64,000 bases of DNA from an uncultured Prolixibacteraceae bacterium (GCA_937915865.1 CALGIG010000071.1:41184-105183), one strand, 5' to 3'; positions 11,130 to 51,445 are shown, numbered from the stretch's first letter. Made by a program: numbers and translations. Notes: generated from the letters alone by a model not told the origin.

Positions 11130-11207
11130 GGTGAACCGGTTAAATTAGAATTAATCAATCTTAGTTTGTAAAATTTGGAATAAAGTGCCAAGGTCCAAAG
11201 GACGATT

Positions 11208-12245: not shown

Positions 12246-12273
12246 TGAATTTTAATTATTTACTTTGATATGA

Positions 12274-13305: not shown

Positions 13306-13376
13306 GTCTTTATTTTTTGAAACTTATTTGTTTGAATCATAGTAAAACCATTCAATTATTCTTATTGTCAATCCAC

Positions 13377-15880: not shown

Positions 15881-15972
15881 CCTTTCTTGTTTTTATAGTT
15901 AAGCAGACTTAGATTGATTCAAATGCTCAACGAGCCCTTGCGGATCAGGGAAACAGGCATTCGCTCCTATTT

Positions 15973-16992: not shown

Positions 16993-17003
16993 GTTGTTTA
17001 TTT

Positions 17004-30956: not shown

Positions 30957-31085
30957 AACTTTGTCATGTTTTAATTAAAGTTTTACTACAAGTGAAAGCA
31001 ATTGGCGGTGAGAGTGGAGGGCACTTTCACCGTTCTTTAGTTAATCTTTTGGTTTCAGTAAATAAATCATAGGCAGCTAGTTTTT
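30957..31085 (-). promoter_or_regulatory. susC leader/promoter cassette, copy A (contains an imperfect hairpin at 31006-31032).
   Basis: This is the intergenic region between the fecR stop and the susC ATG. About 85 bp of it recurs nearly identically at 43596-43680 and more loosely at 38122-38175. Confidence 0.6.
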
Positions 31086-32090
31086 TTAGTTTTTAGATAT
31101 TATTATTTCGTCTTTTTTGTTGTTATATGCTTTCAATTCACATTTCACGCCGTACATGCGTTCCAGGATTTTAAGGAATGGATTAAGCGATTTTCCCTTT
31201 GAAATAGTCCCGGAGACTTCAATATCGCCAACCTTATCTCCAACGAGTTGAATATTAACATTATACCACCTCTCCAGCATAATTACTAATTCAGAAAGCT
31301 TAGTTCTGTTAAGGTATATTTTCCCGTCAATCCAACTGCTGTAGAAATCGGTATTGACTTGCTGGATAGTTGTTTGGCCGCTATGTTTGTTGATGCGAAG
31401 TTGCTCTGACGGTTTCAGGGTTGCCAGGTAATTGCCATTGCTTTTTTCTACTGTCACCACACCTTCAATAAGAGTTACAGTCAAGTCAGGGTCGTCTTTA
31501 TAAGCTGACACATCAAAAGTTGTCCCATACACCTTGATAATCCCTGTTTTCGTCTTGACCTCGAAAGGAACTTTATCGTTGTGCGTAACCTTAAACTGCG
31601 CTTCCCCGATTAGCGTTACTGACCTTTCTTTGTTATCAAACGTTGTAGGGTATTCGAATATGGTGCCGGAGTTGAGCCAAACCTGTGTTCCGTCTGACAA
31701 GGTTATTTTTCCCATCTGTCCTCTTTCCAATTCAATCCTGTTTTTTGTTTCCTGTGATTCCGGTGTGAATAATTTAGGTACCATCACTCCGACCAAAAGG
31801 GCAATCAGAAATATAGCGGCATATTTTGAAAAATTCATAAGAAAGTTCCTTACCTGCCGGAATTGGCTTATTTGACGATTTATGTGTTTCCAGTTTTTCT
31901 CTTTATCGATTTTTTGAATGAGAAAACTATTAGAGGACTTAATGCGAATGAGTTTTACCTGACGTAGTGCTTTTTGGGTTTCCTTGTAACCTTTTATCTT
32001 CTCAAATTCCTTTTCTTCATTTGCATCCAGTTCGTCATTGACCTTTTTGACGCACAAATCCCAAACCCTATTCTTGTCCATTCCGTTCAT
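31086..32090 (-). CDS. FecR-family anti-sigma factor / transmembrane sensor.
   Basis: 334 aa. It has one central TM segment and a FecR-like periplasmic part (ITLSDGTQVWLNSGT). It lies between the ECF sigma gene and the STN-bearing susC. Confidence 0.85.
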   Translation of the reverse strand: MNGMDKNRVWDLCVKKVNDELDANEEKEFEKIKGYKETQKALRQVKLIRIKSSNSFLIQKIDKEKNWKHINRQISQFRQVRNFLMNFSKYAAIFLIALLVGVMVPKLFTPESQETKNRIELERGQMGKITLSDGTQVWLNSGTIFEYPTTFDNKERSVTLIGEAQFKVTHNDKVPFEVKTKTGIIKVYGTTFDVSAYKDDPDLTVTLIEGVVTVEKSNGNYLATLKPSEQLRINKHSGQTTIQQVNTDFYSSWIDGKIYLNRTKLSELVIMLERWYNVNIQLVGDKVGDIEVSGTISKGKSLNPFLKILERMYGVKCELKAYNNKKDEIIISKN

Positions 32091-32160
32091 CTGTATTATC
32101 GTTTCTACTTTAAAGACGCTAATACATCAAAATCCAGTGACAGGAAAAAGATAAATAATT

Positions 32161-32721
32161 TCAATTTTTTTTGAAAAAGAACCATAAAAGGAGCTCGTTC
32201 CTGTTTAACCGTTCGCGTAGAAACCGGTAAGCGCGGCACATTTGTGTATTGACCGTATTAACAGATATTTCCAGTATTTCAGCAATTTCCTTATAAGTCT
32301 TGCCCCTAAAGACAGCCAGTTCCAAAATTTTTTTTTGTTGATTCGGTAGTTCCTCGATCAACCGGTAAACACGACGAATGGTTTCTTCCTTCTCAAGGTT
32401 ATACTCGTCAACCGCGATATTCTCCAAACGTTCGACAACGGTATTGATATCAACTTTTCGACTTTCTGGAGACTGCAAATAAGTGTAAATGGCATTTCGA
32501 ACAGAAACCAAGAGATAATATTTGAGAGAAGATTTAATCTGAATGGACTCCTTTCTCTCCCAAATCCTTATAAAACAATCACTAACAATATCTTGCGAAA
32601 GCTCTAAATTGTTAATTAATGAATTTGCATACTGGCATAAAGGTGAATAATAATCATCAAAAAGCAAACGAAATGCCTGTTTATCCCCTGATTTAATATT
32701 ATCCCAGTTCCATTCCTCCAT
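32161..32721 (-). CDS. ECF-type RNA polymerase sigma-70 factor.
   Basis: 186 aa with region 2 (FRLLFDDYYSPLCQYA) and a region 4 HTH (KTYKEIAEILEISVNTVNTQMCRA). Confidence 0.9.
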   Translation of the reverse strand: MEEWNWDNIKSGDKQAFRLLFDDYYSPLCQYANSLINNLELSQDIVSDCFIRIWERKESIQIKSSLKYYLLVSVRNAIYTYLQSPESRKVDINTVVERLENIAVDEYNLEKEETIRRVYRLIEELPNQQKKILELAVFRGKTYKEIAEILEISVNTVNTQMCRAYRFLRERLNRNELLLWFFFKKN

Positions 32722-32761
32722 AAAAATATGATGATAAAATTCTCACAATATTAAAGATTAA

Positions 32762-33658
32762 TTTGAGAAACTGTTTAAATTTTAGAAAATGATTGTATAA
32801 TATATTGACTATCAGTTGATTGGTTAAGTAAATTGTCGTATCTTTAAGAGTACCAACTACTTACAGATACATGACTCATTATCCAACCAACCTTACTGAT
32901 AGCCAATGGCTCTTTTTAGATGGCATTTTACGCAATAAACGCAAGAGGAAGCACTCCCTGCGTGAAATACTTAATGGCATCTTCTATCTGCTTAAAACAG
33001 GCTGCCAGTGGCGTATGCTGCCACATTGTTTTCCAAAATGGGAACTAGTTTACTACTACTTCTCGAAATGGAAGAACGATGGCACTATTGAACTTATTCA
33101 TGAATTGCTTCGTGATAAAGTTCGCAAGAAAGCTGGGAGGCAAGTATCTCCAAGCTTAGCTTGCATTGATAGTCAATCCGTTAAAACCACCCGTATTGGA
33201 GGTGATTGCCGCGGGATTGATGGAGGCAAAAGGATCAAAGGACGTAAGCGTCATATTATCACAGATTCCATGGGGCTATTGCTTGCCGTGGTTGTTCATG
33301 CTGCAAATGTACATGACAGCAAGGGTGCCGCTGATGTAATTGCCTTATTGAGATATCGTTTCGACAGGCTTGTCAAGATTGTTGCCGATGGCGGTTATAG
33401 AGGTGAACTCGTAGAGAAGACCAAAACTGCTTATGGCTGGATTCTTGACATCGTACTGAGAAAAGACGATTCTCCAAAATTTGCCGTAATACCCAAAAGG
33501 TGGGTTATAGAAAGAACGTTTGCTTGGTTTGAAAGCTACAGAAGGCTCAGTAAAGATTTTGAATACAATACTAATACAAGTGAAGCTATGATCCAACTTG
33601 CAATGATAAAACTAATGCTTAACAGAATTCATAAATGAAATTTAAACAGTTTCTGAAA
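32762..33658 (+). mobile_element. IS5-family insertion sequence with terminal inverted repeats and a 7-9-bp target-site duplication.
   Basis: The left IR is TTTGAGAAACTGTTTAAATTT (from 32762). The reverse complement of the right end is TTTCAGAAACTGTTTAAATTT (to 33658). The direct repeat AGATTAA sits at 32755-32761 and 33659-33665. Confidence 0.85.
32871..33638 (+). CDS. IS5-family DDE transposase.
   Basis: 255 aa. The N-terminus LTDSQWLFLDGIL...REILNGIFYLLKTGCQWRMLP and the C-terminus RWVIERTFAWFESYRRLSKDFE are typical of IS5-family transposases. Confidence 0.9.
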   Translation: MTHYPTNLTDSQWLFLDGILRNKRKRKHSLREILNGIFYLLKTGCQWRMLPHCFPKWELVYYYFSKWKNDGTIELIHELLRDKVRKKAGRQVSPSLACIDSQSVKTTRIGGDCRGIDGGKRIKGRKRHIITDSMGLLLAVVVHAANVHDSKGAADVIALLRYRFDRLVKIVADGGYRGELVEKTKTAYGWILDIVLRKDDSPKFAVIPKRWVIERTFAWFESYRRLSKDFEYNTNTSEAMIQLAMIKLMLNRIHK

Positions 33659-34132
33659 AGATTAAAATCATCTTAGGGGGTTTACCGCAGCCAACGAAAT
33701 CAAAAGATGATTCGTGTTAAAGCTCTGTAAAGAAATGAGCGAAGAACAATTTTTTGACCAAATGCGCCAACTTCGCAAAATAAGGGAGATGGATATAAAC
33801 AAGTAGTAGAATTACATTAGATGCAAGATTATAAAAGAAGGACATTTGATAGGTCCAATTATAGAAGTGATTCGCCAAATGGGTTATTTGGGTGGCAACG
33901 CTCAGGCATACCAGCACATCAATTTTCTTAAAGGCACTCCCGCAACATAGCTACGAACTACATGGAATCACAACGAAAAAGCATACCTTAACGTGAATTC
34001 GATCTAATTTTTAGGTTCAAGTGCGTTTCTATAATTGATATCAATGTTTTCCGCCCCAAATTAAAATGATACCAGGGTCTTCTATAGGTTTATTGCTCAT
34101 ATTTTTGCTGTACTAGTTTTCCCTGATGTTCA

Positions 34133-34199
34133 CGATAACTCGGTTCCCGATTATGCAAACGTTTTCATAATCGGGAACCAAATAATTCGGCAGTTATCG
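34133..34199. repeat. Long imperfect palindrome (perfect 14-bp inner stem).
   Basis: ggttcccgattatg (34142-34155) pairs with cataatcgggaacc (34166-34179). The outer arms are cgataact (34133-34140) and agttatcg (34192-34199). It lies in an apparently non-coding ~900-bp stretch. Confidence 0.6.
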
Positions 34200-34549
34200 A
34201 ACACCTGAGTAACCCTCGATGCTTCATGGTTTTGCCATCAATCTTCACACGCCCCGCATGCAGGATAGCAGAGTCTTCTACAACAGGAGACATCATTTCC
34301 GGGCTTACTGCGTTATGTAATATATCCGGCATCCATGTACTGTGGTTCGAAATTTTTGGTTACAGACAAGGTAAATATTCCGTGTTCTCATCTTTTATAA
34401 TCGCAGTTTGTTTCATCGCGGGCTACAGTCACTTTGATCATTTTTTCTGCTGGCGGCTAAGCGACAAGCCGCAGGCCCGATAAGATGACAAAGCCAAAAA
34501 TACTATTCGAAGGTGATACATAGCTACCATGGTTTATTGATTTTGATCT

Positions 34550-35863
34550 TCATTTAAAACTTATTTGTGTTTTTGCAGATTCCAGCCCAACCCTGTTGAC
34601 AGTTGTAAGCGATATTGAGTCCTTTGCGCTTATTCCAATCCCCAACAACTTTACCGACATAGGAGGTGGAACAACGGGAACAGCGTCATCGCAGTTGGTA
34701 TCGTACGACTGAAAATTCCCGTACGGCGGGTATTGCATGAACAACTTCCCATTCCTGTAAAAATTAAAACACTGGATGCCTGATTCAATGTCGGCATCAG
34801 CAGTCCAGTTGATTGTTAAAGTGTCGCCTCTTTTTTCAAATTTTGCGTTTTTGGGAGAAGGGGGAGGTGTAACATCTTTTACTTTAGCTGTGGCGATATA
34901 TTCACTGAACTTCGCGGCACAGGCCGAATCCGGCAGCCATGATTTGTTTTGCGGGTTTCCTTGGAACAGAGCCGCATTATAGATTTGTGGTTTGCAGTTG
35001 GTGGTAGTATCGCAAAGCCATGCTTTTGCCTGATCCATATCTTTCAGAACATTTGAACCATCTGTGGAAAGGCGCTGTTTCAGTACCGATTCAAAAAAAG
35101 GTATTACCATGTTCCTCAGATAGGTAAAATTGTGCGTCTGACCAGCATTGTAAGCCAAGCTTACCAGTCCGCCCATGCTACGTAACTTCGAAAACGTGTG
35201 CAGAGCTGTTTCCCAACAATTAATAATGTCCTTCGATCCAGCATGTCTTATCAACAGTGGAATCTTTGTGGCTGCTTCTGAATAGACGAACTGGGGATCG
35301 AAAGCCGGCGAGTAGGCTACGATAGCCATAATTCGTTCAGGAAATTTATCCAGCATAGACAGCACCCAATAGCCACCACCCGAGTGGCCCCACAGCAAGA
35401 AAGGGGCACTGGCAAGTTCCGGATGTTTGGAAATTTTTCCAATCGTTTCGAGCGCTGCGAAAAGAGACGGCCCTGAACCGTCCTCAACAGGATCCCGCCA
35501 GTCAAAACAATTCGAACCAGGTTTGGGATACAGGTCCGGGCCAACTACAGCCAATCCCCATTTTTTTGCAAAGGATTGATATTGCACATCGTAAGCAGTA
35601 GCAACTCCTCTGCCCTCTGCTGTGCATCCATGTTGATGGATAAAGGAACCCCGGATTTTCCCTATCCCTTCTGGTATAAAAATAGAATAACAAGCTCGAT
35701 CAAAGTTGAAACTGCTGTCGCGGATAGTTACATTATAGATAGTCCCACCTGGAACCTTTACAATGGTTTGACCAAATACTGACGACAAAATAAATGTAGA
35801 TATTATGACAGCTTTTATTTTCAATTTTATACAACACATAAGACTTATATTTTTCATATGCAA
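34550..35863 (-). CDS. Secreted alpha/beta-hydrolase esterase (carbohydrate-esterase-like) with a C-terminal Ig/Fn3-like domain.
   Basis: 437 aa with a signal peptide. It has a nucleophile elbow GHSGGG, and the C-terminal ~100 aa look like a beta-sandwich (TINWTADADIESGIQCFNFYRNG). Confidence 0.6.
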   Translation of the reverse strand: MHMKNISLMCCIKLKIKAVIISTFILSSVFGQTIVKVPGGTIYNVTIRDSSFNFDRACYSIFIPEGIGKIRGSFIHQHGCTAEGRGVATAYDVQYQSFAKKWGLAVVGPDLYPKPGSNCFDWRDPVEDGSGPSLFAALETIGKISKHPELASAPFLLWGHSGGGYWVLSMLDKFPERIMAIVAYSPAFDPQFVYSEAATKIPLLIRHAGSKDIINCWETALHTFSKLRSMGGLVSLAYNAGQTHNFTYLRNMVIPFFESVLKQRLSTDGSNVLKDMDQAKAWLCDTTTNCKPQIYNAALFQGNPQNKSWLPDSACAAKFSEYIATAKVKDVTPPPSPKNAKFEKRGDTLTINWTADADIESGIQCFNFYRNGKLFMQYPPYGNFQSYDTNCDDAVPVVPPPMSVKLLGIGISAKDSISLTTVNRVGLESAKTQISFK

Positions 35864-35951
35864 TTTTTATTTAAAATCATTGTTGCCCGGTAAACCAGGA
35901 TATTTCTAATAAATTCATAATAGTTTTTAGTTTAAATGGTCTGTAAATCTT

Positions 35952-37931
35952 TCATCGCGTAATTCTCATGACAAATCCGCCTCCATGTGCCATTTTAACT
36001 GCAAAATTTGAATCTTTATTAACTGGTACATTTTCAAAAAGATAATCCGTTCCGATACGATCAGAATTCGGACCGTCTTTTAAAATTTGGGCAGTATAAT
36101 TTCCATCACCCAAAAAAGAGAAATCAATGGTAGCTTGCTGTGGTTGTTTTCCTGTCATACCAGCTACATACCAGGTATTGCCAGTCTTCCGCGCTTCAAC
36201 GAGGTATTCTCCAAATTTCGCCTCCAACACTTTTGTTTCGTCCCAGGTGGTCGGAATTTTAGCGATGAACTTCGTAATTTCAGGTTCGTGTTCATAAACA
36301 GAAGGAGCATCACATAACATTTTCAGAGGTTCATTGTAAAGAACATACAGGGAGATTTCATTGCATCGTGTTCCATGAACGCAAGGTAAAGTCATGCGCT
36401 GGTTGTGTCCTGATTGCAAGTTACGCATTCCTCCAGGAGTGTAATCCATCGGCCCCTGTAACCCACGGGCAAATGGGAGTAATACTTTATGGGCCACTGT
36501 AGCCTTGTCTACATTGATTTTATTCCATTCATTTCCTGCCACAGCTTCCCAATTAATCACATTCGGGTAAGCCCTTGATAAACCTGTTGGTTTTGTACAA
36601 CCATGGAAGTCAACAAGCATTTTCCTTTCAGCCGCGGCCCGTGCAATGTTCTCGTAAATTTGTATTCCGGTCTGGTCTTCCCGATAAAAAAAATCGGCCT
36701 TGATCCCTGCAACACCATACGAAGCGAACAAATCGAGTGCCTTATTCAGTTGTTCGTAAAGAGAATGTCCTGGCACCCATACAATCACCTTAACCCCTTT
36801 CGATGAACCATAATCAACAATTTTTTTTAGGTCAACCTCCGGATTTAATAAGGTAAGGTCGTCCTTATCGGTCAAGCCTGCGTCAATCAAGATATATTCC
36901 AGTCCATAATTGGCAGCGAAATCTATATGGTACAAGTAGGTTTGAGTATTTACCCCGCCCTTCAAATCCTGCCCTTCAACCGCATAGTCATGCCACCATT
37001 CCCACGCTACTTTACCTGGCTTAATCCAATCAGTTTTCGGTAACTTGCATGGTCTGGAAAGCTGATATACCAAATCACAATCAGCAAAAGTCCGGTCATC
37101 ATCGCTAATCACCAATAAACGCCATGGATACTCTCGGGAGCCGTTCGTTTTAGCTATGTAATCTGCCTCCTTATCCGGATTCCGTAAATAGTTATTGTAT
37201 CCTCCTCTCTTAGCAGTTAAAACATATTTTTCAAAGGAGCCTGAAAAATTGTTTTCAACATCATTTCCCCGATCAAGAAATAAACTCGGATAATCGAACA
37301 GATCAGCTTCGGTAATCGCAACTTTTACGTTTGGCGTTGCTTGCACGATAACAGGCAGGCAGATTTTATGCATTCTCCTTCCAATACCCCGCCTTTGTAT
37401 CGAATCGGCATTAAGGGAGACAAACATATAGTTTGTCTCATAATTTGGTTCATCAAGAACCCAGGCTGATGCATCGGCATTGAAACGAAATTCCACTTGC
37501 TCATTTTTCACAATCACCTGTTTTTCTTTTAACCGGGTCACAAACCGGTAAGCGATTCCATTGTCGTAAGCCCTAAATTCCACCGAGTAATTTCCTGCAA
37601 AATTAATAGTCAACTGGTTATAATTATCATTTACTTCATGTCGGCTACCCCAAACAGGCCGAATGGTTGTGTCAACTGCATTCTCGGAAAAGTCCAGCAT
37701 CTTTGGATCTTTTCCCAAAGTTGTGTTCTCCAGAGAAAGACTTAATGGTGAGGCGTTGAGAACCCTCTCATTTCTGAAGAAAACAGAATAATAGATTTTT
37801 TCTTTTAAAATAACCTCAACAGCTATGTTATTAGCAGGAGACACAAGCTTTATTTCTGAGGCGTAGGCTATTAAACCTGAGAAGAAAAATAATAAAACAA
37901 AAACTAACCTTTTCTTTTGCATTTTTTTCAT
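35952..37931 (-). CDS. Glycoside hydrolase family 97, second paralog.
   Basis: 659 aa, collinear with and highly similar to the 21686..23656 product (for example GIKADFFYREDQTG, VDFHGCTKPTGLSRAYPN). Confidence 0.88.
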   Translation of the reverse strand: MKKMQKKRLVFVLLFFFSGLIAYASEIKLVSPANNIAVEVILKEKIYYSVFFRNERVLNASPLSLSLENTTLGKDPKMLDFSENAVDTTIRPVWGSRHEVNDNYNQLTINFAGNYSVEFRAYDNGIAYRFVTRLKEKQVIVKNEQVEFRFNADASAWVLDEPNYETNYMFVSLNADSIQRRGIGRRMHKICLPVIVQATPNVKVAITEADLFDYPSLFLDRGNDVENNFSGSFEKYVLTAKRGGYNNYLRNPDKEADYIAKTNGSREYPWRLLVISDDDRTFADCDLVYQLSRPCKLPKTDWIKPGKVAWEWWHDYAVEGQDLKGGVNTQTYLYHIDFAANYGLEYILIDAGLTDKDDLTLLNPEVDLKKIVDYGSSKGVKVIVWVPGHSLYEQLNKALDLFASYGVAGIKADFFYREDQTGIQIYENIARAAAERKMLVDFHGCTKPTGLSRAYPNVINWEAVAGNEWNKINVDKATVAHKVLLPFARGLQGPMDYTPGGMRNLQSGHNQRMTLPCVHGTRCNEISLYVLYNEPLKMLCDAPSVYEHEPEITKFIAKIPTTWDETKVLEAKFGEYLVEARKTGNTWYVAGMTGKQPQQATIDFSFLGDGNYTAQILKDGPNSDRIGTDYLFENVPVNKDSNFAVKMAHGGGFVMRITR

Positions 37932-38121
37932 TTTGATGTATTTAAATCATAATACTTCGTTAATTTTTAACCATTTATTTTGCTCCAATCCAATAGTTCT
38001 GCAACATTTTTTTTTTTTAATTTTTAGCAGTGTTTGGATTAGTAGTGAACCCGCAGATAATTTCCCCAATTATCAAGGTTCCAGTAAGTTTAATCTATCG
38101 TCTATCCTCCCTAAATTTTTC

Positions 38122-38267
38122 CTACTTGTTAAAGCAATTGACGGTGAAGGTAATGGGCACTTTCGCCGTTCTTCCATTTGATGTCTTTCTGTTCATTTGC
38201 TTTTAAGGTTTCTATTTAAAAGACGCTAAGGCATCCAAATTAAGTGACAGGGAGGGCAGATAATCTC
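38122..38267 (-). promoter_or_regulatory. Leader/promoter cassette copy B (hairpin, 24-codon fecR-start scar and sigma-fecR intergenic homolog).
   Basis: Homologous to 43625-43770, and in parts to 30990-31040 and 32086-32160. It lies about 190 bp upstream of the second GH97 gene. Confidence 0.55.
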
Positions 38268-38343
38268 AAAAAATAAATCTAAAGCATTTAAAAACTAATT
38301 TCCCTATGCCCTTGTTTTTAATAGGCTTACTATCTTTCGGATA

Positions 38344-38583
38344 GTGCACGCAGTAAGATATACTATTCCGTTCTATAAAGAAATTAATGAATTGCTGGCT
38401 TCCATTGGATTGGAGTACACGACTGCTGATCCGCTTTTTTATTGTTTGCGATTAAAGGAGAATGATGGTTCACTAAACAATTACAAACCACCGTTCAGAA
38501 AAGACTTTTATTTTATAACTTTGAGAGACAGAAACATGGGAGAATGTCCAAGATTTGTGAAAATCGGCATCCCCCGTTTTTAA
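38344..38583 (+). pseudogene. N-terminal fragment of an AraC-family regulator (no HTH domain left).
   Basis: 79 codons with a non-ATG start. The segment DPLFYCLRLKE...YKPPFRKDFYFITL resembles the sensor half of Bacteroidota AraC-type regulators. The ORF stops before any HTH. Confidence 0.4.
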
Positions 38584-38591
38584 ATAATGAA

Positions 38592-39584
38592 CTACTTATT
38601 TAAAATCAATTTTTGCGTCGACGTCCCTTCTTTTGTCGACATTTTGACAAAATAAATCCCATTTGAAAGACCAGATAAATTGAAGAATTGGTTCGGGTTC
38701 ACATTATCTTTTTTCAACATTGCTTTCCCATCAATGTTGAAAATCTGGATATGATCTAGCCGCGAAGGAGAAATAATCGTTAGAGAACCAGTTGAGGGGT
38801 TTGGATAAATCTGGCATTTCAATTGATCAGCTTCTTCAATACCAGTAGTTATCGTGCTTTGTGGAACTGACAAATTATCGATATAAATATTACCACTTCC
38901 CCTGTTTGGAGTATTATCGTCTGCCAGGAAGAAGATTTTGGCTTTTTTCAGGGAACCGTTAAAAACACTGTCCCCATTTGCAACATAAGGGTTCAGGTGA
39001 AACCGGAAAGAACTTCTTGTGTAGCTTATGGGGTTATCTCCTTCCAACTTCTGTAATTTGATTGAACAGGTATGATCGTAAGCGCTTCCTGTCTTCATAT
39101 TTATTTCTACATGAAACCAACTATCCACGGGAAATTGCATATTGGTACCTTCATCTGTTTTTATGGCACCGCCAAAAAAGGTTTCGCCTAACGCGCCATA
39201 TAGTCCGAGGAAAACTAAATCCGGCCCTCTTCGCCCAACCGAATCCAGAACAACAATGTGAAACCATAAAGGACTCGGAACCTTAACATCAAAACTAAAC
39301 GTAGCAATCCCATTGTCAGGTTCTTTGAGATTGATCGCGAAATAGGGATCGGCAGCTGCAGAGAGGGAATCGTCCGTCATAACCAAAGACTTGCTTCCTG
39401 ACCATTTATCTTCAGAAGTCACTTCAACTGCCGTATTACCACTGGCACTTACATCGGTAATAAAACCAGGGACTGCGCCGTCATCATAGTTTTCAAAGCC
39501 TTCCTGGGCTTGAGTGGATTTGAGGCATATCAAACTTATACTACAAATCAATAAGACAAAAATGTAAACTTTTTTCATGATCAA
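38592..39584 (-). CDS. Secreted protein with a T9SS C-terminal sorting domain. The N-terminal beta-sandwich (lectin-like) domain is of unknown specificity.
   Basis: 330 aa with a signal peptide. The C-terminus IYPNPSTGSLTI...NGIYFVKMSTKEGTSTQKLILNK is a typical type-A Por sorting domain. Confidence 0.75.
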   Translation of the reverse strand: MIMKKVYIFVLLICSISLICLKSTQAQEGFENYDDGAVPGFITDVSASGNTAVEVTSEDKWSGSKSLVMTDDSLSAAADPYFAINLKEPDNGIATFSFDVKVPSPLWFHIVVLDSVGRRGPDLVFLGLYGALGETFFGGAIKTDEGTNMQFPVDSWFHVEINMKTGSAYDHTCSIKLQKLEGDNPISYTRSSFRFHLNPYVANGDSVFNGSLKKAKIFFLADDNTPNRGSGNIYIDNLSVPQSTITTGIEEADQLKCQIYPNPSTGSLTIISPSRLDHIQIFNIDGKAMLKKDNVNPNQFFNLSGLSNGIYFVKMSTKEGTSTQKLILNK

Positions 39585-39997
39585 AATTTTTAGGTTAATT
39601 AAAAAATATTAGTCTGTATTGAATTTTTCCGTGAAAATGGCAGAAAGGTATTTCCACTATTCCCGGGTATCTACTTCTTCTTTTTTTAAAAATCCATCGC
39701 CTTTATCTTCTCGATTTTCACTCCTCCAATTAGACGGCGAGCTTCAACCAGTGCGTTGGCCCTTATTTCATATTCTGAAGGGTAAAGTATTTTTGTATTT
39801 GGGTCTTCACAAAAATGAGTATCTGAATATGTTGGGACTGTAAAGTATTTTACTATATAATTCTGAATAAGAAGCACTCAGGTTGAATCCAAATGTTTGG
39901 GGATTCATCCGTAATTTATTCAAGAGTGATAAGAAAAATATGTTCTTTCGGATAAATAATGAGATTTTGAAATAGGAATGCATTATTGTGATGATCC

Positions 39998-41800
39998 TCA
40001 TTTTAAAATCTTAAAAACCGAAATTCCACCGCCTGAAACCTTGTCTCTTTTAATTTCAAACTGAAACGCCTCCAATTCCTTTCCTTTAATTTTCCACTTC
40101 CTGTCATTCCAAAGGTCGTGTATGGTATAGGTTTTATCCGGGTTTATCCCCGTATGCTGCAATGGCATTTTTATTTTGCATTTCACGTCCTGATTGGTGT
40201 TGTTGCCTGCCACAATAATGATTTTTTTCGTGTTTTGCATAGCAAAAGGCACAGGTATTTTTATCGAACTTTCGTATTGCAGTTCAAACAGATCCGGCAA
40301 AGTATCATTCAGATAGGCATGAAAGATATCGGCCTCTTCTTTTCTAATTGAAATCATCCTTTTGACATCCTGTAACATATCCCGTTGCTCTTTCTGATTG
40401 AGCTGTTCCCAGTCGATGATCGCACCATAAAGCCAGGTGCCATCTCCCGGGGTTCCTTTGCCATAAAGGTCAGGGGTGAGTTTGGGATTGGGACTGAATT
40501 TTGCATCAAATTCCTCTCCGCTCATAAATAAAGGAATCGCCGGGGTAAAAAGGCAACTGTATCCAAACAAACAACGGCTTCCTTCCGCCACATAAGGATT
40601 TTGTTCTTTGGGAAAGTTCTCCCAGCCTTCATCGTGGTCGCTGAGATCAACGGAATAATAATGCAGATCGGGGACAAATGGCTCCAGGTACAGACGCATG
40701 CTTTCTCCGGTATTGATCGCGCTATACAGTTGACCGTCGCTACCAAAGGTCCATTTTACATCTAACCTATAACTTCTAGGGATGACATCTATGTTTGTAA
40801 TATGCTTGGTTGTATCAATGTTTTCGACAAGCAATTCAATATTCCGATAATTCTTGTCTTGTTTGCTTTTTTCAATGTCCACCGGGATCTCGGGCTCCGC
40901 CAGTTTGGTAACACTCAGTTTGCCATCACGAAGTGTGGAGCCTTCCTCCACTGTCCCGTCCTGGTAATGGATGAGGACGGTGAAGTCATTCCTGTTTTGA
41001 AATTTGTTGTTGAAGAATAATGCTGTATTGGAAAGGATTGTCTTGTCGGAATTCACACCTTCTTCCAGAAGCTCGCTAAGTCTTTCCATGCGCTGAAAGA
41101 AATCGCACACACTTTCATTGCGCCTGTCCCATTCCAGAAAAACAACAATCGGGTGGCCGGCATCAGCACACCGTTTCTTGATTTCCCTCCACAGATCAGG
41201 ACGGTATATATCCACATCCAGTCGGAAACCATCAACGCCATACTTTAACACATAATCCACATGGGTTTGCACCCACCAGGCGTCCAGGTCGTCATGATTG
41301 CCAGACCAGTCGTAATCGGTCATTCCCCAGGACCCCCCTTTGAACCATTCGGGATGTTCGTGAATCAGGGGACTTTCATTCATAACTCCGTGTGTAATCA
41401 CATCGAGGAATACTTTGATCTTGTACTTATGGAATTCATCCACAAGCGATCTGAAGTCTGACGGTGTCCCTAAAGTAGGCTCAATACTATCTGGGCGAAT
41501 GCAGGCATATTGCGTCCATATCCCATAAAAATGGCCATTATCGGCCCAGCTGGATCCGGCCAGCCAAACCCCGTTAATCCCAAGGTCTGCGAGGTAGGGG
41601 ACTCTTTCTTTTGTCGATTGAAATGTCCCTGTTCCCTGCCCTTTGGGAGAAGTGAAATTTTTTGTGGAAATTTCATAAACAATGAGGTCTTTTATCCATT
41701 CGGGCTGCCGCATCGTTTGGGCTGAAAGTATATTTGCCCATAGTAGCAACGTGATAAGCATGATTTTCCTGATCTGCTTACATTTATCTAACTTACACAT
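39998..41800 (-). CDS. Glycoside hydrolase family 13 (alpha-amylase superfamily) enzyme.
   Basis: 600 aa with a signal peptide. It has GH13 conserved-region-like segments DVITHGV, GVDGFRLDVD and VVFLEWD. Confidence 0.8.
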   Translation of the reverse strand: MCKLDKCKQIRKIMLITLLLWANILSAQTMRQPEWIKDLIVYEISTKNFTSPKGQGTGTFQSTKERVPYLADLGINGVWLAGSSWADNGHFYGIWTQYACIRPDSIEPTLGTPSDFRSLVDEFHKYKIKVFLDVITHGVMNESPLIHEHPEWFKGGSWGMTDYDWSGNHDDLDAWWVQTHVDYVLKYGVDGFRLDVDIYRPDLWREIKKRCADAGHPIVVFLEWDRRNESVCDFFQRMERLSELLEEGVNSDKTILSNTALFFNNKFQNRNDFTVLIHYQDGTVEEGSTLRDGKLSVTKLAEPEIPVDIEKSKQDKNYRNIELLVENIDTTKHITNIDVIPRSYRLDVKWTFGSDGQLYSAINTGESMRLYLEPFVPDLHYYSVDLSDHDEGWENFPKEQNPYVAEGSRCLFGYSCLFTPAIPLFMSGEEFDAKFSPNPKLTPDLYGKGTPGDGTWLYGAIIDWEQLNQKEQRDMLQDVKRMISIRKEEADIFHAYLNDTLPDLFELQYESSIKIPVPFAMQNTKKIIIVAGNNTNQDVKCKIKMPLQHTGINPDKTYTIHDLWNDRKWKIKGKELEAFQFEIKRDKVSGGGISVFKILK

Positions 41801-41801
41801 T

Positions 41802-42071
41802 TTATCGCTTTTTAAAATTGAAAAGTTTGGTTTGAGCCTGCTCCAAAATGATATTTGGTTTCTGTTTAGACAAAATTACATTCTGCTTGTGCCATATCTC
41901 TATGACTTTTATAGGTGCATCCTTTCTAATCTGCGTCGGTATGTTGAGCCTCATCTCGACTCTGCGGTTGACGGTGTGGTTAATGCCTTCTTCAAAATTG
42001 TCAGCCAGTATCCGGACGCTTCCGTCGTTCAGTTTCCAATTATAAATATAATCTTCGCGGTATTTTTCCAT
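41802..42071 (-). CDS. Hypothetical small protein.
   Basis: 89 aa. It is packed tightly between two genes (a 3-nt gap upstream and a 1-nt gap downstream). I recognised no motif. Confidence 0.35.
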   Translation of the reverse strand: MEKYREDYIYNWKLNDGSVRILADNFEEGINHTVNRRVEMRLNIPTQIRKDAPIKVIEIWHKQNVILSKQKPNIILEQAQTKLFNFKKR

Positions 42072-42074
42072 TGT

Positions 42075-43595
42075 TTAATTACCCTCAACAAAGTCAGCAT
42101 AAGTGCCAAAATTGCGCGTGCCTTCCCCGTCATAGGCCAGCGGAGTATTCGTGATAGAAAGGGCTCCTGTCGCTGATAAGACCGTCTCACCCGCGCGGGT
42201 AAGGATGATTTGGGGCTGTCCCCGGTTGGCGCCCCAGGGCGCTTCTACGTGACTGACACCGGCATTAAGGTCCCACGAACCGATCTGAACACCGCCCAGG
42301 TTCACTGTCAGGGTAGCTGGAGCTGTCAACTCCGTGGTCAGATAGACCTCATCTTTAGCGTTTTCAATCCCTGTAATAGGAGTCCCGGCTTCAACGCATT
42401 CACATCCTGTGGGAGCCGGTAAATCTTTGGGATGTTGCCGGTAACTGTAGAAGATTTTATCTTTTACGATCGGTTGAACTTCGCCAAGTCGGTAAGACTT
42501 AATCAGTCGTTTCTGGGCCTCCCGAAAGCCGCGGTGTGTCCATATCGGCATGTCCGTGTTCCCGTTAAATCCGCCGGGAACAACATACGCGACAGACCCC
42601 CCGTAAGGCGCAGGTGGAATCTGAACTTGAGGCACCAGATGATGATCTTCACTCAAGTCTGAATACTCAGTCAGAAAGACCATATCCTTGTCTTTGAGCA
42701 CTCCATTCGGCGGAAGCAACGCATTCCAGAACCTGAACAGTCCTTTACTACCCTCATGTTCTATGTAATTACTCCTGTCTCTGCCGCAGACCTGCCAATA
42801 GGCTGGTGAGACACCTGGAAATACAGTAGCTCCATACTGGCCCATTGCGTCCTGCAAGGTGAGCGTCCGATCAATATTCGCTTGTGAAGAATCAGTCCCA
42901 AAAACATAAAAATTTACATCGTATCCGGCCTGTCGCATAATTCTGACGTTATTCGCGATCGTGTTCGGATAAAGCCCACTCTCATATAGAAAATAGGGGT
43001 CAAACCCCGCTGACTTTAGTGGCGTGAGCAGATCATTAATATATTGACCCGCAGTTGCCTGAGAAGCGCCTCCGTTCCACACAGCAAATATTGGTTTACC
43101 ATTCTTTGTGGCGTAATCCGGACCATGTCCATACTGCTTCAGGGCTTCGACGCCCCAAAAATTATCAAAAACACCGGTACTAGAATTAAAAGGCTCTGCC
43201 AGGATAAACCAGGAGAATTTTGCATCATGCTCCTGGTTATATTCCCGGACCGCTTGCGCAATGGCAGCCATGTTGTCCTTGTCCCGTTGTTCATCAAAAG
43301 CATCATCCATCAGTGCGTTAACGCCAAGATCAACCATTCCCGCTATAATATTTTTGTAGGCATTGACCCGACCTGTTAAAGAATAGTCGCCTTGAAGCCC
43401 GCCATAAAGCCACGAGCCGGACATGGGAGAAAAATCAACAGCGATCACACTTCGCGGTGGCAGCTCTATCCCACCTTCCCACGGTTCGGGAATAGGTTCG
43501 GGTGCTGGATCCTTTTTACAGGTCCAAAACAAATAACTTGAACAAAAAAATAGCAAGATCAAGGATGCAAAATAATGTGCTTTTACTTTTTTCAT
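42075..43595 (-). CDS. Lipoprotein, putative glycoside hydrolase (GH71/alpha-1,3-glucanase-like TIM barrel plus a C-terminal beta domain).
   Basis: 506 aa with a lipobox (FWTC). The segment VSPAYWQ...FWNALL...MVFLTEYSDLSEDHHL resembles the GH71 VSPWF...WNDYGESHY pattern. The family call is tentative. Confidence 0.45.
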   Translation of the reverse strand: MKKVKAHYFASLILLFFCSSYLFWTCKKDPAPEPIPEPWEGGIELPPRSVIAVDFSPMSGSWLYGGLQGDYSLTGRVNAYKNIIAGMVDLGVNALMDDAFDEQRDKDNMAAIAQAVREYNQEHDAKFSWFILAEPFNSSTGVFDNFWGVEALKQYGHGPDYATKNGKPIFAVWNGGASQATAGQYINDLLTPLKSAGFDPYFLYESGLYPNTIANNVRIMRQAGYDVNFYVFGTDSSQANIDRTLTLQDAMGQYGATVFPGVSPAYWQVCGRDRSNYIEHEGSKGLFRFWNALLPPNGVLKDKDMVFLTEYSDLSEDHHLVPQVQIPPAPYGGSVAYVVPGGFNGNTDMPIWTHRGFREAQKRLIKSYRLGEVQPIVKDKIFYSYRQHPKDLPAPTGCECVEAGTPITGIENAKDEVYLTTELTAPATLTVNLGGVQIGSWDLNAGVSHVEAPWGANRGQPQIILTRAGETVLSATGALSITNTPLAYDGEGTRNFGTYADFVEGN

Positions 43596-43770
43596 AACTT
43601 TGTCATGTTTTAGTTAAAGTTTTACTACTTGTTAAAACAATTGGCGGTGAAGGTGGAGGGCACTTTCACCGTTCTTTTATTTGATGTCTTTCTGTTCATC
43701 TGCTTTTACCATTTCTATTTAAGAGACGATAAAGCATCCAAATTCAGTGACAAGGAGGGCAGATAATCTC
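43596..43770 (-). promoter_or_regulatory. Leader/promoter cassette copy C (susC-type leader, hairpin, 24-codon fecR-start scar and sigma-fecR intergenic homolog).
   Basis: 43596-43680 is nearly identical to the susC leader 30957-31040, including the ATGAAAAAA start context. 43681-43770 is homologous to 32086-32160 and to copy B. Confidence 0.6.
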
Positions 43771-43962: not shown

Positions 43963-44648
43963 TTTGTACTTCACGAGTTCGGGATTGAGTTTCAATGCGG
44001 GGAAAAGGGACCTGTGGCAAATGTAAAGTCAGAGTTATTTGGGGAGAAATTAAAACAACAGAAAATCACCTTCGGAAGATTGAACAACTGAGCCTGCCAT
44101 TCGACCGGCGACTAGCTCGTTTCAGTCAGTGCACCGTTGATATTACGCTTGAAATTGAGCAGTTTAATCACCTAATCCTGGCCGACGAGAGCGAATTTGA
44201 CTTTCATCCGCAAAAAGGCTTCGGAATTGCGGTCGACCTGGGGACAACCACGGTGGTAGCCCAATTGATCGACTTGTCCTCGTCAAAAGTGCTGGTCTTT
44301 GAAACCATGCTGAACCCGCAGGTTAAATTCGGGGCTGATTTGATTTCGAGGATACAGGCCTGCCTGGATGGACATGCTTCTGAAATGACCCGGATAATCC
44401 GTTTATCAATAGGAACAATGATTGAATTGATGCTGAAAGAACACGAAGTCGGTTTGCAAAAAGTGATCCTTGTTGGCAATACCGCCATGCATCTGATTTT
44501 CTGCAATTGTGACGTTACTCCTCTTTCGATGTACCCTTTTCACGCCAGCAATTTAGGGATGAAAATCTTCGTTCCGGAGGAATTGGGATGGGACTTTCAG
44601 GTTAACGGAACAATACAGTTTTATGGAACGAAGTTATTAAATAAATAA
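43963..44648 (+). pseudogene. Truncated, frameshifted copy of the RACo reductive-activase gene.
   Basis: Homologous to codons ~25-245 of 13377..14861. A G4 run at 43999-44002 replaces the G5 run of the intact gene and shifts the frame inside the CGGKGTCGKC cluster. Homology ends near 44610, and the ASKHA C-terminal half is missing. Confidence 0.85.
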
Positions 44649-48937: not shown

Positions 48938-48989
48938 TAAATTAACTACGGATTATAAATTAACCTAATTGCCATAAAAATATGGCAAA

Positions 48990-50429: not shown

Positions 50430-50480
50430 AATAGTTTATCTTTGAAGCCGGGCAACCCATTGTCCAGCTTTTTTATTCTT

Positions 50481-51422: not shown

Positions 51423-51445
51423 AATCAGTTAAAAAATATACACTT

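What the first reader, a model, noticed from the sequence alone, without database searches (positions are those of the whole stretch)
30957..43770. The susC promoter/leader cassette is present three times, placing two extra hydrolase units behind susC-type upstream regions
Seen:
- The ~85 bp upstream of the susC ATG (30957-31040) recurs nearly identically upstream of the GH71-like lipoprotein gene (43596-43680). The match includes the ATGAAAAAA start context and an imperfect hairpin, cggtgaRRgtg-gaggg-cactttcaccg.
- It recurs more loosely at 38122-38175, upstream of the second GH97 gene.
- Copies B and C continue into sequence homologous to the fecR start and the sigma-fecR intergenic region (32086-32160), but have no fecR or sigma gene.

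Inference: cassette duplication may have brought three transcription units under the single ECF sigma/FecR/STN-SusC signalling system. Alternatively, copies B and C are relics of two lost sigma/anti-sigma/SusC modules.
Basis: partly seen in the sequence, partly recalled or inferred. Interest (0 to 1): 0.65.

Follow-up and report, generated by a model that had tools for sequence, protein, structure and literature searches.

The report
Duplicated sigma-promoter plus antisense-RNA cassette
A 160-180 bp control region of a sugar-uptake gene cluster, made of a likely alternative-sigma-factor promoter and a likely small antisense RNA gene, has lost its anti-sigma gene and been copied in front of two extra enzyme operons, which probably puts them under the same sugar-sensing switch.

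Summary
The repeat is real. Three copies exist (A split at 32163-32085 and 31040-30948; B 38267-38112; C 43770-43587), and the source metagenome holds no others.

- **Promoter.** The likely promoter is not the 85 bp before susC. It is the piece homologous to the sigma-fecR spacer. That piece carries an ECF-type motif, TGTCAC-N18-CGTC, found exactly three times in the window. It also occurs once, between sigma and fecR, in 11 of 12 related Prolixibacteraceae loci; the twelfth has TGTTAC.
- **Hairpin.** The hairpin belongs to the opposite strand. In 15 copies it pairs at 193 of 195 positions on the strand antisense to the genes, against 161 of 195 on the sense strand. It is always followed by a T-tract there. 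A TAnnTTTG promoter box overlapping the susC ATG lies about 40 nt before it.

Together these predict a roughly 72-nt cis-antisense RNA of the DonS type known from Bacteroides PULs.

B and C share one fecR-deletion junction, so a single fecR-less cassette arose and was then duplicated. They are not two independently decayed modules. C is grafted in frame onto the GH71 start codon. B has lost the antisense promoter and sits 180 nt from GH97.

Co-regulation by the single sigma factor is plausible but untested. This is a new variant of known kinds, of moderate interest.

The parts
32161..32721 (-). ECF sigma factor gene (186 aa), the only one in the cluster
   Evidence: Pfam Sigma70_ECF, r2 and r4_2. 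It is 64-71% identical to the sigma genes of the related loci.
32115..32142 (-). Copy A, predicted ECF-type promoter TGTCAC-N18-CGTC between the sigma stop and the fecR start
   Evidence: TGTCAC and CGTC are invariant in alignment A1. It is an exact-motif hit. The same motif occurs once per locus in 11 of 12 related loci, and as TGTTAC in L019.
31086..32090 (-). fecR anti-sigma gene (334 aa), present only in copy A
   Evidence: Pfam FecR and FecR_C. It belongs to a subfamily of about 65 proteins at 48-68% identity in Prolixibacteraceae.
30956..30963 (+). Copy A, TAACTTTG: a Bacteroidetes -7 box (TAnnTTTG) on the antisense strand, overlapping the susC ATG. Predicted promoter of the antisense RNA.
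   Evidence: CATAnnTTTG is present in all 12 related loci.
30968..31041 (+). Copy A, predicted cis-antisense small RNA (about 72 nt), complementary to the susC 5' leader. The terminator hairpin is at 31004-31034, followed by TTCTTT.
   Evidence: Top terminator-like site of the region. Hairpin energy is -20.2 kcal/mol on + against -13.0 on -. The whole RNA folds at -24.1 kcal/mol, z = -4.65. Covariance model R1 scores it 103.5 bits.
27543..30956 (-). susC with an N-terminal STN extension, followed by susD (25723-27519), a beta-helix protein, GH97 and GHL6
   Evidence: Pfam. STN scores 26.9 bits, just under the 28.4 cut-off.
43725..43752 (-). Copy C, ECF-type promoter motif TGTCAC-N18-CGTC (the G before CGTC is replaced by T)
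43625..43699 (-). Copy C, 24-codon relic ORF. It consists of the fecR start and about 7 codons fused across the deletion into the leader (MNRKTSNKRTVKVPSTFTANCFNK*).
   Evidence: It differs from the B version at 4 of 24 residues, so there is no sign of selection on the peptide.
43607..43681 (+). Copy C, predicted antisense small RNA. The -7 box TAACTTTG is at 43595-43602, overlapping the GH71 ATG. The hairpin is at 43643-43673, followed by TTCTTTT.
   Evidence: Fold is -25.3 kcal/mol, z = -5.52. R1 scores it 103.4 bits.
39998..43595 (-). Unit behind copy C: GH71-like lipoprotein (42075-43595), an 89-aa ORF (41802-42071) and a GH13-like protein (39998-41800)
   Evidence: Pfam. Homology between A and C runs to ATG+9, so the GH71 start codon and two Lys codons come from the susC start.
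38222..38249 (-). Copy B, ECF-type promoter motif TGTCAC-N18-(G)CGTC, fully intact
38122..38196 (-). Copy B, 24-codon relic ORF (MNRKTSNGRTAKVPITFTVNCFNK*)
38140..38170 (+). Copy B, antisense-strand hairpin followed by TTCTTCC. It is weaker than in A and C, and the homologous -7 box is lost. Only a near-match, TAAGTTTA, is present at 38085-38092.
   Evidence: Hairpin energy is -15.6 kcal/mol on + against -8.4 on -. The predicted RNA has z = -1.5. R1 scores it 67 bits. There is no exact TAnnTTTG upstream.
34550..37931 (-). Unit behind copy B: a second GH97 (35952-37931) and an alpha/beta hydrolase (34550-35863)
   Evidence: Pfam. This GH97 is 65% identical to the PUL's GH97 at 21686-23656.

Best explanation
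**Canonical layout.** The repeated unit is a compact regulatory cassette derived from the sigma-fecR-susC control region of an ECF-type polysaccharide utilisation locus. In copy A and in 12 related Prolixibacteraceae loci the order is:
- the sigma gene;
- an ECF-type promoter, TGTCAC-N18-CGTC;
- fecR;
- a spacer;
- susC.

The spacer encodes, on the opposite strand, a roughly 72-nt cis-antisense RNA. Its TAnnTTTG -7 box overlaps the susC ATG. Its 13-bp terminator hairpin with a T-tract lies about 40 nt further on.

**Origin of B and C.** One deletion of about 1 kb removed fecR, from codon 8 to about 45 nt past its stop. This fused the promoter to the antisense-RNA and leader segment. The fecR-less cassette was then duplicated.
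- Copy C is grafted in frame onto the start codon of a GH71-GH13 operon.
- Copy B lies 180 nt upstream of a GH97-hydrolase operon. It has lost the antisense promoter part.

**Inferred working.** When the STN-SusC/FecR pair releases the single sigma factor, the factor fires all three promoters, so the two hydrolase operons upstream of the sigma gene are induced together with fecR-susCD. The antisense RNAs of A and C are 88-96% alike across their segments. They pair with the leader, including the A-rich region at -11 to -23 before the ATG, and damp expression in the way reported for DonS in Bacteroides.

**Shown:** the repeat, the shared deletion junction, conservation of the motifs, and the strand asymmetry of the hairpin.

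**Inferred:** promoter activity, sigma dependence, existence and size of the antisense RNA, and repression.
For: **Repeat and shared junction.**

**Promoter motif.**
- It matches exactly only at the three sites in the window.
- It occurs once per locus, between sigma and fecR, in 11 of 12 related loci whose surrounding spacer has diverged. L019 has TGTTAC.
- There is no TAnnTTTG on the gene strand upstream of fecR/susC or GH97. The one upstream of GH71 lies about 170 nt beyond cassette C (43930-43923).

**Antisense terminator.**
- The three hairpins are the top three terminator-like sites in 15 kb, all on the + strand.
- Fifteen hairpins give 160 Watson-Crick + 33 G.U + 2 mismatches on the antisense strand. 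The sense strand gives 160 + 1 + 34.
- The antisense-strand energy is lower in all 15 (-15.1 to -20.2 against -8.3 to -16.1 kcal/mol).
- A T-rich tail follows in all 15.
- The loop can change (GAGGG to CCCCC) while the stem is kept.
- A model built on 12 copies found the element in 3 of 3 unseen loci at 97-107 bits, each time antisense to the susC start.
- Two unrelated ECF-PUL loci have different hairpin sequences in the same architecture.

**Selection on the non-coding element.** SusC proteins of these loci are only 36-39% identical, while the element is about 90% identical.

**Known precedent.** DonS-type antisense RNAs of 78-128 nt lie opposite susC in ECF-type PULs and repress them. Thirty-two candidates have been reported in B. 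thetaiotaomicron (PMC7366714; bioRxiv 10.1101/2023.02.16.528795).

**Metatranscriptomes.** Two runs both show an RNA end at 30986, and a 179-nt contig ends at 43630. Both ends lie inside the predicted sense/antisense overlap and upstream of the ATGs. One adapter calibrator suggests these are 3' ends of the gene-strand RNA.
Against: - There is no direct evidence of an antisense transcript of about 72 nt. The RNA data are unstranded assembler contigs at 2-7x depth, and short RNAs would not be in such libraries.
- The C contig extends 90 nt upstream of the predicted ECF start site, so at least some transcription enters from further upstream.
- The hairpin shows no clear double-sided covariation. 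One G.U to G-C change is the only candidate, and the shuffle controls are not exceeded. The strand argument rests on one-sided A/G changes in related sequences.
- Conservation of the 10-11 motif bases in B and C is only weakly significant, given 12-25% overall divergence over about 75 nt.
- CATAnnTTTG could be conserved for translation initiation of susC rather than as an antisense promoter.
- B lacks that box and lies far from its gene.
- The predicted RNA (about 72 nt) is shorter than the 78-128 nt reported for the DonS family.
- No related genome with orphan copies was found, so there is no comparative support for their function.
Confidence: 0.55

Rival explanations
1. The hairpin acts in the mRNA itself, on the gene strand, as a leader structure. 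It could be an attenuator, an intercistronic processing site, or a 3' stabiliser for the fecR message. The 85 bp would then be a promoter/leader shared by susC, GH71 and GH97.
For: - RNA contigs covering fecR end at 30986 in two runs, and a leader contig of C ends at 43630. These ends are 18 and 13 nt downstream of the hairpin and upstream of the ATGs.
- One adapter calibrator points to gene-strand 3' ends.
- The sense-strand leader still folds better than shuffles (z = -2.2 to -2.8).
Against: - On the sense strand every hairpin carries 1-3 A.C mismatches (34 in 15 copies). It is 3-7 kcal/mol weaker than on the antisense strand.
- An A-tract precedes it and no U-tract follows, so it is not an intrinsic terminator in that direction.
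- No promoter motif of either kind lies between the hairpin and the ATG on the gene strand.
- The observed ends would equally result from cleavage within a sense/antisense duplex.
Confidence: 0.2
2. B and C are functionless debris of past duplications or rearrangements in an IS-rich region. The hydrolase units are driven by other promoters or by read-through.
For: - The region is rich in IS elements (32871-33638, 45831-47012, 47144-48232).
- B has lost the 3' 45 nt of the leader, and its hairpin is degraded (z = -1.5).
- The relic ORF evolves freely.
- Motif conservation in B and C is only weakly beyond chance.
- A TACTTTTG box lies upstream of C on the gene strand at 43930-43923, and the RNA contig starts upstream of the ECF motif.
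- No other genome shows such orphans.
Against: - Both copies sit immediately upstream of glycoside-hydrolase operons of the same apparent glucan theme, in the right orientation.
- The deletion removed exactly fecR while keeping both regulatory elements.
- The cassette was kept through a duplication and 12% divergence, with TGTCAC, CGTC and the stem intact.
- C is fused in frame at the start codon, and its last 28 nt are 96% identical to A.
Confidence: 0.2
3. The imperfect palindrome is a DNA operator for a dimeric transcription factor, not an RNA structure.
For: It is an 11-13 bp inverted repeat with a 5-nt spacer, highly conserved across genera and placed close to a start codon.
Against: - The variable positions break DNA symmetry in every copy, yet they keep G.U pairing on one strand.
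- The centre can be replaced (GAGGG to CCCCC).
- A T-tract on one side only is conserved.
- Unrelated loci carry different hairpins at the same place.
Confidence: 0.04

Closest known systems
DonS-type PUL-associated cis-antisense RNAs of Bacteroides (Cao et al. 2016, J Bacteriol 198:2410, as described in PMC7366714 and bioRxiv 10.1101/2023.02.16.528795)
   Same: It is a small RNA gene on the strand opposite the susC homologue of a PUL controlled by an ECF sigma/anti-sigma pair. It has its own housekeeping-type promoter and a terminator, and it overlaps the susC 5' region. The family is reported to repress its PUL.
   Different: - The host is a Prolixibacteraceae (Marinilabiliales) bacterium from an anaerobic sludge or biofilm community, not a gut Bacteroides.
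- The predicted length is about 72 nt, against 78-128 nt.
- The element here also occurs detached from susC and fecR, in front of hydrolase genes.
- Expression is not demonstrated.
ECF sigma / FecR-like anti-sigma / STN-SusC trans-envelope signalling PULs (Martens et al. 2009; ECF240 in the classification of PMC7826278)
   Same: Copy A has the full gene set and order: sigma, fecR, susC with an N-terminal extension, susD, then glycoside hydrolases.
   Different: Target promoters of this ECF group have not been defined experimentally (PMC7826278; PMC12596196). This study predicts a motif, TGTCAC-N18-CGTC, located upstream of fecR rather than of susC. Extra copies of it without an anti-sigma gene extend the regulon to genes upstream of the sigma gene.
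FopS/GibS trans-acting sRNAs of B. thetaiotaomicron (PMC11697453)
   Same: These are 65-70-nt RNAs with a single-stranded 5' seed and a terminator hairpin. They bind next to the start codon of susC, or of the first glycoside hydrolase gene of a PUL operon, and block translation. They are multicopy.
   Different: FopS RNAs are mostly encoded elsewhere and act in trans through a short seed. The RNA predicted here is encoded opposite its target, with full complementarity. No Rfam family matched.

Membership tests
ECF sigma/FecR/STN-SusC trans-envelope signalling PUL | Adjacent ECF sigma and FecR-type anti-sigma genes | tested here: met
   Pfam Sigma70_ECF/r2/r4_2, and FecR + FecR_C.
ECF sigma/FecR/STN-SusC trans-envelope signalling PUL | SusC-like TonB-dependent transporter with an N-terminal signalling (STN) extension, followed by SusD | tested here: met
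   Plug and CarboxypepD_reg domains are present. STN covers residues 69-120 at 26.9 bits, just below the 28.4 cut-off. SusD_RagB scores E = 9e-52.
ECF sigma/FecR/STN-SusC trans-envelope signalling PUL | Sigma-dependent promoter driving the PUL genes | tested here: inconclusive
   An ECF-like motif, TGTCAC-N18-CGTC, is conserved upstream of fecR in the related loci and in B and C. Activity and sigma dependence are not testable with these tools.
DonS-type PUL-associated cis-antisense RNA | Encoded on the strand opposite the susC homologue's 5' region, in an ECF sigma/anti-sigma PUL | tested here: met
   The hairpin, T-tract and -7 box all lie on the antisense strand between fecR and susC, in A and in 12 related loci.
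DonS-type PUL-associated cis-antisense RNA | Own promoter and intrinsic terminator defining a discrete small RNA | tested here: met
   TAnnTTTG overlaps the ATG. A 13-bp stem with a T-tract is paired at 193 of 195 positions on that strand. This holds at the motif level only.
DonS-type PUL-associated cis-antisense RNA | Length 78-128 nt | tested here: not met
   The predicted length is about 72 nt, from the -7 box to the T-tract. This is borderline and depends on an unmapped start site.
DonS-type PUL-associated cis-antisense RNA | Transcript detected, and anti-correlated with or repressing its PUL | not testable with these tools
   Only unstranded, low-depth metatranscriptome contigs are available. 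They show RNA ends at 30986 and 43630 within the predicted overlap.
DonS-type PUL-associated cis-antisense RNA | Sequence homology to DonS or the B. thetaiotaomicron BTnc antisense RNAs | not tested
Miniature mobile or REP-like interspersed repeat | Many dispersed copies, terminal inverted repeats or target duplications | tested here: not met
   There are only three copies in the source metagenome, all in this cluster, and one per locus elsewhere. No terminal repeats were reported.
Leader-peptide transcription attenuator | Conserved upstream ORF coupled to a sense-strand terminator | tested here: not met
   The 24-codon ORF exists only in B and C, as a deletion product. It differs at 4 of 24 residues between them. 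The sense-strand hairpin has no U-tract.

The most novel reading that the evidence does not exclude
The fecR-less cassette (ECF promoter, translated fecR-start relic, antisense RNA gene and susC start codon) may be a portable wiring module. It would plug newly acquired glycoside-hydrolase operons into a PUL's trans-envelope signalling circuit. The near-identical antisense RNAs of the copies would act on each other's leaders in trans, giving one sigma factor and one small-RNA pool joint control over three operons. This would be a mode of regulon growth not yet described for PULs. It would come with the first defined promoter motif for a Bacteroidota ECF240-type sigma subfamily, and with an extension of DonS-like riboregulation beyond gut Bacteroides.
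Probability: 0.3. Interest if true: 0.6.

Novelty: new variant of a known kind. Interest (0 to 1): 0.5.

Why it matters
Promoters recognised by the many PUL-linked ECF sigma factors of Bacteroidota are still essentially undefined. PUL antisense RNAs have been studied only in gut Bacteroides.

This locus offers three things:
- a concrete promoter motif that can be tested in cultivable relatives (Gaoshiqia sediminis, Maribellus comscasis);
- evidence that the antisense-RNA architecture is conserved in an environmental family, where it is under stronger constraint than the transporters it sits beside;
- a natural experiment in which the control region, stripped of its anti-sigma gene, has been re-used in front of other operons.

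If confirmed, it would show how a PUL can enlarge its regulon by copying about 170 bp. It would also provide a compact, inducible promoter-plus-riboregulator part.

If the orphan copies are inert, the finding reduces to an ordinary rearrangement scar.

Tried and rejected
- **Metagenome scan for the hairpin.** It gave only two chance hits, inside GC-rich coding regions.
- **Genome scan.** It found three true loci but no genome with orphan copies. The source species itself is not among the species representatives.
- **Rfam.** Searches at gathering and at permissive thresholds found nothing.
- **Cao et al. 2016, the DonS paper.** It is not held, so homology to DonS could not be checked.
- **RNA runs for relatives.** None hold the Gaoshiqia locus. 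The Maribellus locus could not be submitted.
- **GH71 homologues.** The closest are 48% identical and sit in unrelated, non-PUL contexts.
- **tblastn for decayed sigma, fecR, susC or susD.** None were found.
- **Mobile-element reading.** Rejected on copy number.
- **dCas12f-sigmaE RNA-guided transcription (PMC13472631).** Considered and set aside. Those sigma genes lack a FecR partner, unlike the one here, and no Cas12f-like gene showed up among the ORFs scanned.
- **A + strand start at 30986.** Considered and judged unlikely, because no -7 box lies at the right distance and the region is not conserved.

Full report
**Setting**

The window is a metagenome contig (ENA assembly) from a member of the Prolixibacteraceae. 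That assignment rests on its closest FecR and element matches: Gaoshiqia, Draconibacterium, Maribellus, Sunxiuqinia and Mangrovibacterium.

All the relevant genes lie on the minus strand. In order they are:
- copy C;
- a GH71-like lipoprotein, an 89-aa ORF and a GH13-like protein;
- a T9SS-tail protein;
- copy B;
- GH97 and an alpha/beta hydrolase;
- an IS5 transposase (on the plus strand);
- the ECF sigma gene, fecR, and susC with an STN extension;
- susD, a beta-helix protein, a second GH97, GHL6 and an MFS sugar transporter.

The two extra hydrolase units lie upstream of the sigma gene. They therefore cannot be co-transcribed with the canonical PUL operon.

Local alignments show that B (38267-38112) and C (43770-43587) are continuous. 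Each has four parts:
- about 75 nt homologous to the spacer between the sigma stop and the fecR start of copy A (32163-32085);
- the fecR ATGAAC and about 7 degenerate codons;
- a junction;
- sequence homologous to the fecR-susC spacer from 31040 downwards.

C continues to ATG+9 of the GH71 gene. B's homology ends at about 38112, 180 nt before the GH97 ATG.

| Segment | A-B | A-C | B-C |
|---|---|---|---|
| Promoter part | 75% | 76% | 88% |
| Hairpin part | 77% | 88% | 85% |
| Last 28 nt | unrelated | 96% | unrelated |

(Identities.)

Chance is excluded. The DNA run that contains this organism has only three contigs matching the cassette, namely A, B and C. This is a locus-specific triplication, not an interspersed repeat.

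**Origin of B and C**

B and C share the same 5' boundary, at the position of the sigma stop codon, and the same deletion junction. A single deletion of about 1 kb removed fecR from codon 8 to about 45 nt past its stop. The resulting fecR-less cassette was then duplicated. Two independently decayed modules would not share the junction, and no sigma, fecR, susC or susD remnants are detectable anywhere else in the window.

The deletion created a 24-codon ORF. It differs at four residues between B and C, so I treat it as an accident of the fusion. It keeps the fecR translation start, so it may well be translated.

**The promoter is in the fecR-proximal part**

Across copy A and the related sigma-fecR spacers first aligned, the only invariant blocks are TGTCAC and, 18 nt later, CGTC, usually within GCGTCCTTTATATG. 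With further loci fetched through FecR homologues, the exact motif occurs once per locus, always between sigma and fecR, in 11 of 12 loci. L019 has TGTTAC.

In the 64-kb window the exact motif occurs only three times, at A, B and C. A -35-like element followed by a CGTC -10 is the general shape of ECF promoters; that statement rests on established knowledge of the family.

On the gene strand there is no housekeeping TAnnTTTG box upstream of fecR/susC or GH97. For GH71 the only one, at 43930-43923, lies about 170 nt beyond cassette C. Nothing promoter-like lies between the hairpin and the susC ATG on the gene strand.

The likely transcription unit is therefore P(ECF)-fecR-susC-susD onwards. What B and C have inherited is this promoter.

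The literature searched does not define target promoters for this PUL-linked ECF group (PMC7826278; PMC12596196), so the motif is a prediction.

**The hairpin belongs to the other strand**

- *Terminator scan.* In the 15-kb region the three best terminator-like sites are exactly the three hairpins, all on the plus strand, antisense to the genes.
- *Folding.* The plus-strand hairpin is a 12-13-bp stem of -15.6 to -20.9 kcal/mol. The gene-strand version is interrupted by A.C mismatches, at -8.4 to -14.3.
- *Pair counts, six copies.* 98.7% of cells pair on the antisense strand, against 80.8% on the sense strand.
- *Pair counts, fifteen copies.* The antisense strand has 160 Watson-Crick, 33 G.U and 2 unpaired positions. 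The sense strand has 160, 1 and 34.
- *Pattern of variation.* The variation is a purine wandering among three adjacent positions (GAGAG, GAAGG, GGAAG, GGGAG) opposite an invariant UUU. That preserves pairing only in the antisense RNA.
- *Loop.* It can be replaced (GAGGG to CCCCC in L009) with the stem intact.
- *Tail.* Every copy is followed on the antisense strand by a T-rich tail (TTCTTT, TTTTTT, TTTTCT and similar). On the gene strand it is preceded by an A-tract and followed by no U-tract, so it should not stop fecR-to-susC read-through.

About 40 nt upstream on the antisense strand, CATAAnTTTG is conserved in A, C and all 12 related loci. It contains the Bacteroidetes -7 box TAnnTTTG and overlaps the susC ATG. 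It is followed by a conserved ATGTTTTAAT block, which would be the 5' end of the RNA and is complementary to positions -11 to -23 of the susC leader.

The predicted RNAs of A and C (about 72-75 nt) fold at -24.1 and -25.3 kcal/mol, with z = -4.7 and -5.5.

A covariance model built from 12 copies detected the element in 3 of 3 loci not used to build it, at 97-107 bits, each time antisense to the susC start. It found nothing else in about 300 kb of flanks.

Two unrelated ECF-PUL loci that happened to lie in the flanks (L012 2993-3107 and L018 1871-2040) have entirely different hairpin sequences in the same arrangement: a -7 box over the ATG, then a stem, then a T-tract on the antisense strand. 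This is the best evidence that the architecture, not the sequence, is what matters.

*Caveats.* Double-sided covariation is essentially absent, the shuffle controls are uninformative, and the sequences are related.

**Constraint**

Between these loci the sigma factors are 64-71% identical and the FecR proteins 56-63%. The SusC proteins are only 36-39% identical, and the downstream enzymes differ: fucosidases, sulfatases, GH32, GH5, and here GH97 and GH71. These are paralogous PULs for different glycans. They share a closely related sigma/anti-sigma pair, its promoter motif and a nearly invariant non-coding element.

**RNA evidence is thin but suggestive**

Two metatranscriptomes hold parts of the locus, as low-depth assembler contigs without strand information.
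- In both, a contig covering the 3' part of fecR and the hairpin ends exactly at 30986. In one it ends with read-through into a sequencing adapter, so this is a real fragment end.
- For copy C, a 179-nt contig spans 43630-43808.
- Both ends lie 13-18 nt beyond the hairpin, 30-35 nt before the ATG, and inside the predicted sense/antisense overlap.
- A second adapter junction lies in an IS transposase transcript whose 5' end (45803) is shared by both runs. It suggests that read 1 is sense in this library, which would make 30986 a 3' end of the gene-strand RNA. This is a single calibrator, and it is meaningless if the library is unstranded.

Truncation of the leader within the duplex region is what antisense-guided cleavage or repression would produce. 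Plain endonucleolytic processing, with the hairpin acting as a 3' stabiliser, would look the same.

The C contig starts 90 nt upstream of the predicted ECF start site, so some transcription enters from further upstream. No RNA was seen over B.

**Comparison with what is known**

The closest known system is the DonS family. These are cis-antisense RNAs of 78-128 nt, encoded divergently to susC homologues of ECF-type PULs in Bacteroides, which repress their PUL (PMC7366714). Thirty-two such candidates are reported in B. thetaiotaomicron (bioRxiv 10.1101/2023.02.16.528795).

The present element matches the family in position, strand, promoter type and terminator. It is somewhat shorter, comes from a different order and habitat, is not in Rfam, and is not shown to be expressed. 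Homology to DonS could not be tested.

FopS RNAs are similar in size and in targeting the start region of the first PUL gene, but they act in trans (PMC11697453).

What appears new is the detached, fecR-less cassette placed in front of non-susC genes. None of the 12 related loci has an orphan copy within 10 kb. The genome-wide pattern scan also found single copies only.

**State of the two orphan copies**

C looks fully functional on paper. It has the promoter motif (one flanking G changed to T), the complete antisense gene with its -7 box, and an in-frame graft of the susC start (ATGAAAAAA) onto the GH71 signal peptide.

B keeps a perfect promoter motif. It has lost the last 45 nt of the leader, including the -7 box. 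Its hairpin is weaker and its predicted RNA is hardly more stable than shuffled sequence (z = -1.5). It lies 180 nt from GH97. It may work as a promoter only.

The closest GH71 homologues are 48% identical and lie outside PULs.

**Verdict**

Its anatomy is wrong on two counts: where the promoter is, and which strand the hairpin serves.

The mechanism I favour, at about 55% for the whole chain, is a single ECF sigma factor firing three copies of its promoter, with a DonS-like antisense RNA damping at least two of the three leaders. The individual links are more secure than the chain: common fecR-less origin about 0.9, ECF promoter about 0.7, antisense terminator or small RNA about 0.65-0.7.

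The main rivals are a sense-strand leader function and inert rearrangement debris, each at about 0.2. This is a new variant of known kinds and of moderate interest.

Noticed in passing
window 10113-17034, 43995-44648, 48269-51991: A corrinoid methyltransferase gene set flanks the PUL in a Bacteroidota contig. It includes four URO-D/MtaA-like genes, a full RACo activator (13377-14861), MtaB (48990-50429, E = 8e-160), a B12-binding protein (48269-48937) and cobW-like/Met_synt_B12 genes. A truncated RACo-middle ORF (43995-44648) abuts cassette C. Methanol- or methoxy-group methyltransferases are unusual next to a glycan locus, and might act on methylated sugars.
   Followed up: no
window 32871-33638, 45831-47012, 47144-48232: Three DDE transposase genes lie in the region. 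An IS5-family element sits directly upstream of the sigma gene, and two IS elements split the methyltransferase cluster from its truncated RACo gene. Both metatranscriptomes have a contig starting at 45803, 28 nt upstream of the 45831 ORF, which is a likely transposase start site.
   Followed up: partly
window 31068-31075 (minus strand); also L003-L005, L008-L013 and L018 1871-1891: An 8-mer TGCCTATG (a few loci differ at one or two bases) lies immediately after the fecR stop codon in the ten related loci whose spacers were printed, and in an unrelated ECF-PUL locus. It was removed by the deletion that created B and C. Its function is unknown. The short ORFs starting at its ATG are not conserved.
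   Followed up: partly
L012 2993-3107 (+) and L018 1871-2040 (antisense): Two further sigma/FecR/SusC loci of other subfamilies carry non-homologous hairpins with a T-tract on the strand antisense to susC, and a TAAATT(T/C)G box over the susC ATG. Antisense RNAs opposite susC may therefore be general in Prolixibacteraceae ECF-type PULs.
   Followed up: partly
window 30915-30936 (minus strand) and equivalent positions in L004, L005, L012: The first about 15 codons of these otherwise divergent SusC proteins are conserved (MKK-N--C---QW). The DNA there contains a conserved TTGCC...GGCAA inverted repeat, flagged as terminator-like on the gene strand. It could be an mRNA structure or an upstream element of the antisense promoter.
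   Followed up: no
window 30986 and 43630: Discrete RNA ends appear in metatranscriptome contigs, 13-18 nt from the hairpin and 30-35 nt upstream of the susC and GH71 start codons. The 30986 end is seen in two independent runs, one with adapter read-through. The strand is not established.
   Followed up: partly
window 34135-34186: A 26-nt inverted repeat with no spacer (85% complementary) lies in the 900-nt non-coding stretch between the IS5 element and the alpha/beta hydrolase gene.
   Followed up: no
window 39585-39997: A 413-nt intergenic gap lies between the GH13-like gene and the T9SS-tail protein gene. It contains a 34-nt direct repeat (39782-39815 and 39840-39873). It is unclear whether transcription from cassette C continues through it.
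   Followed up: no
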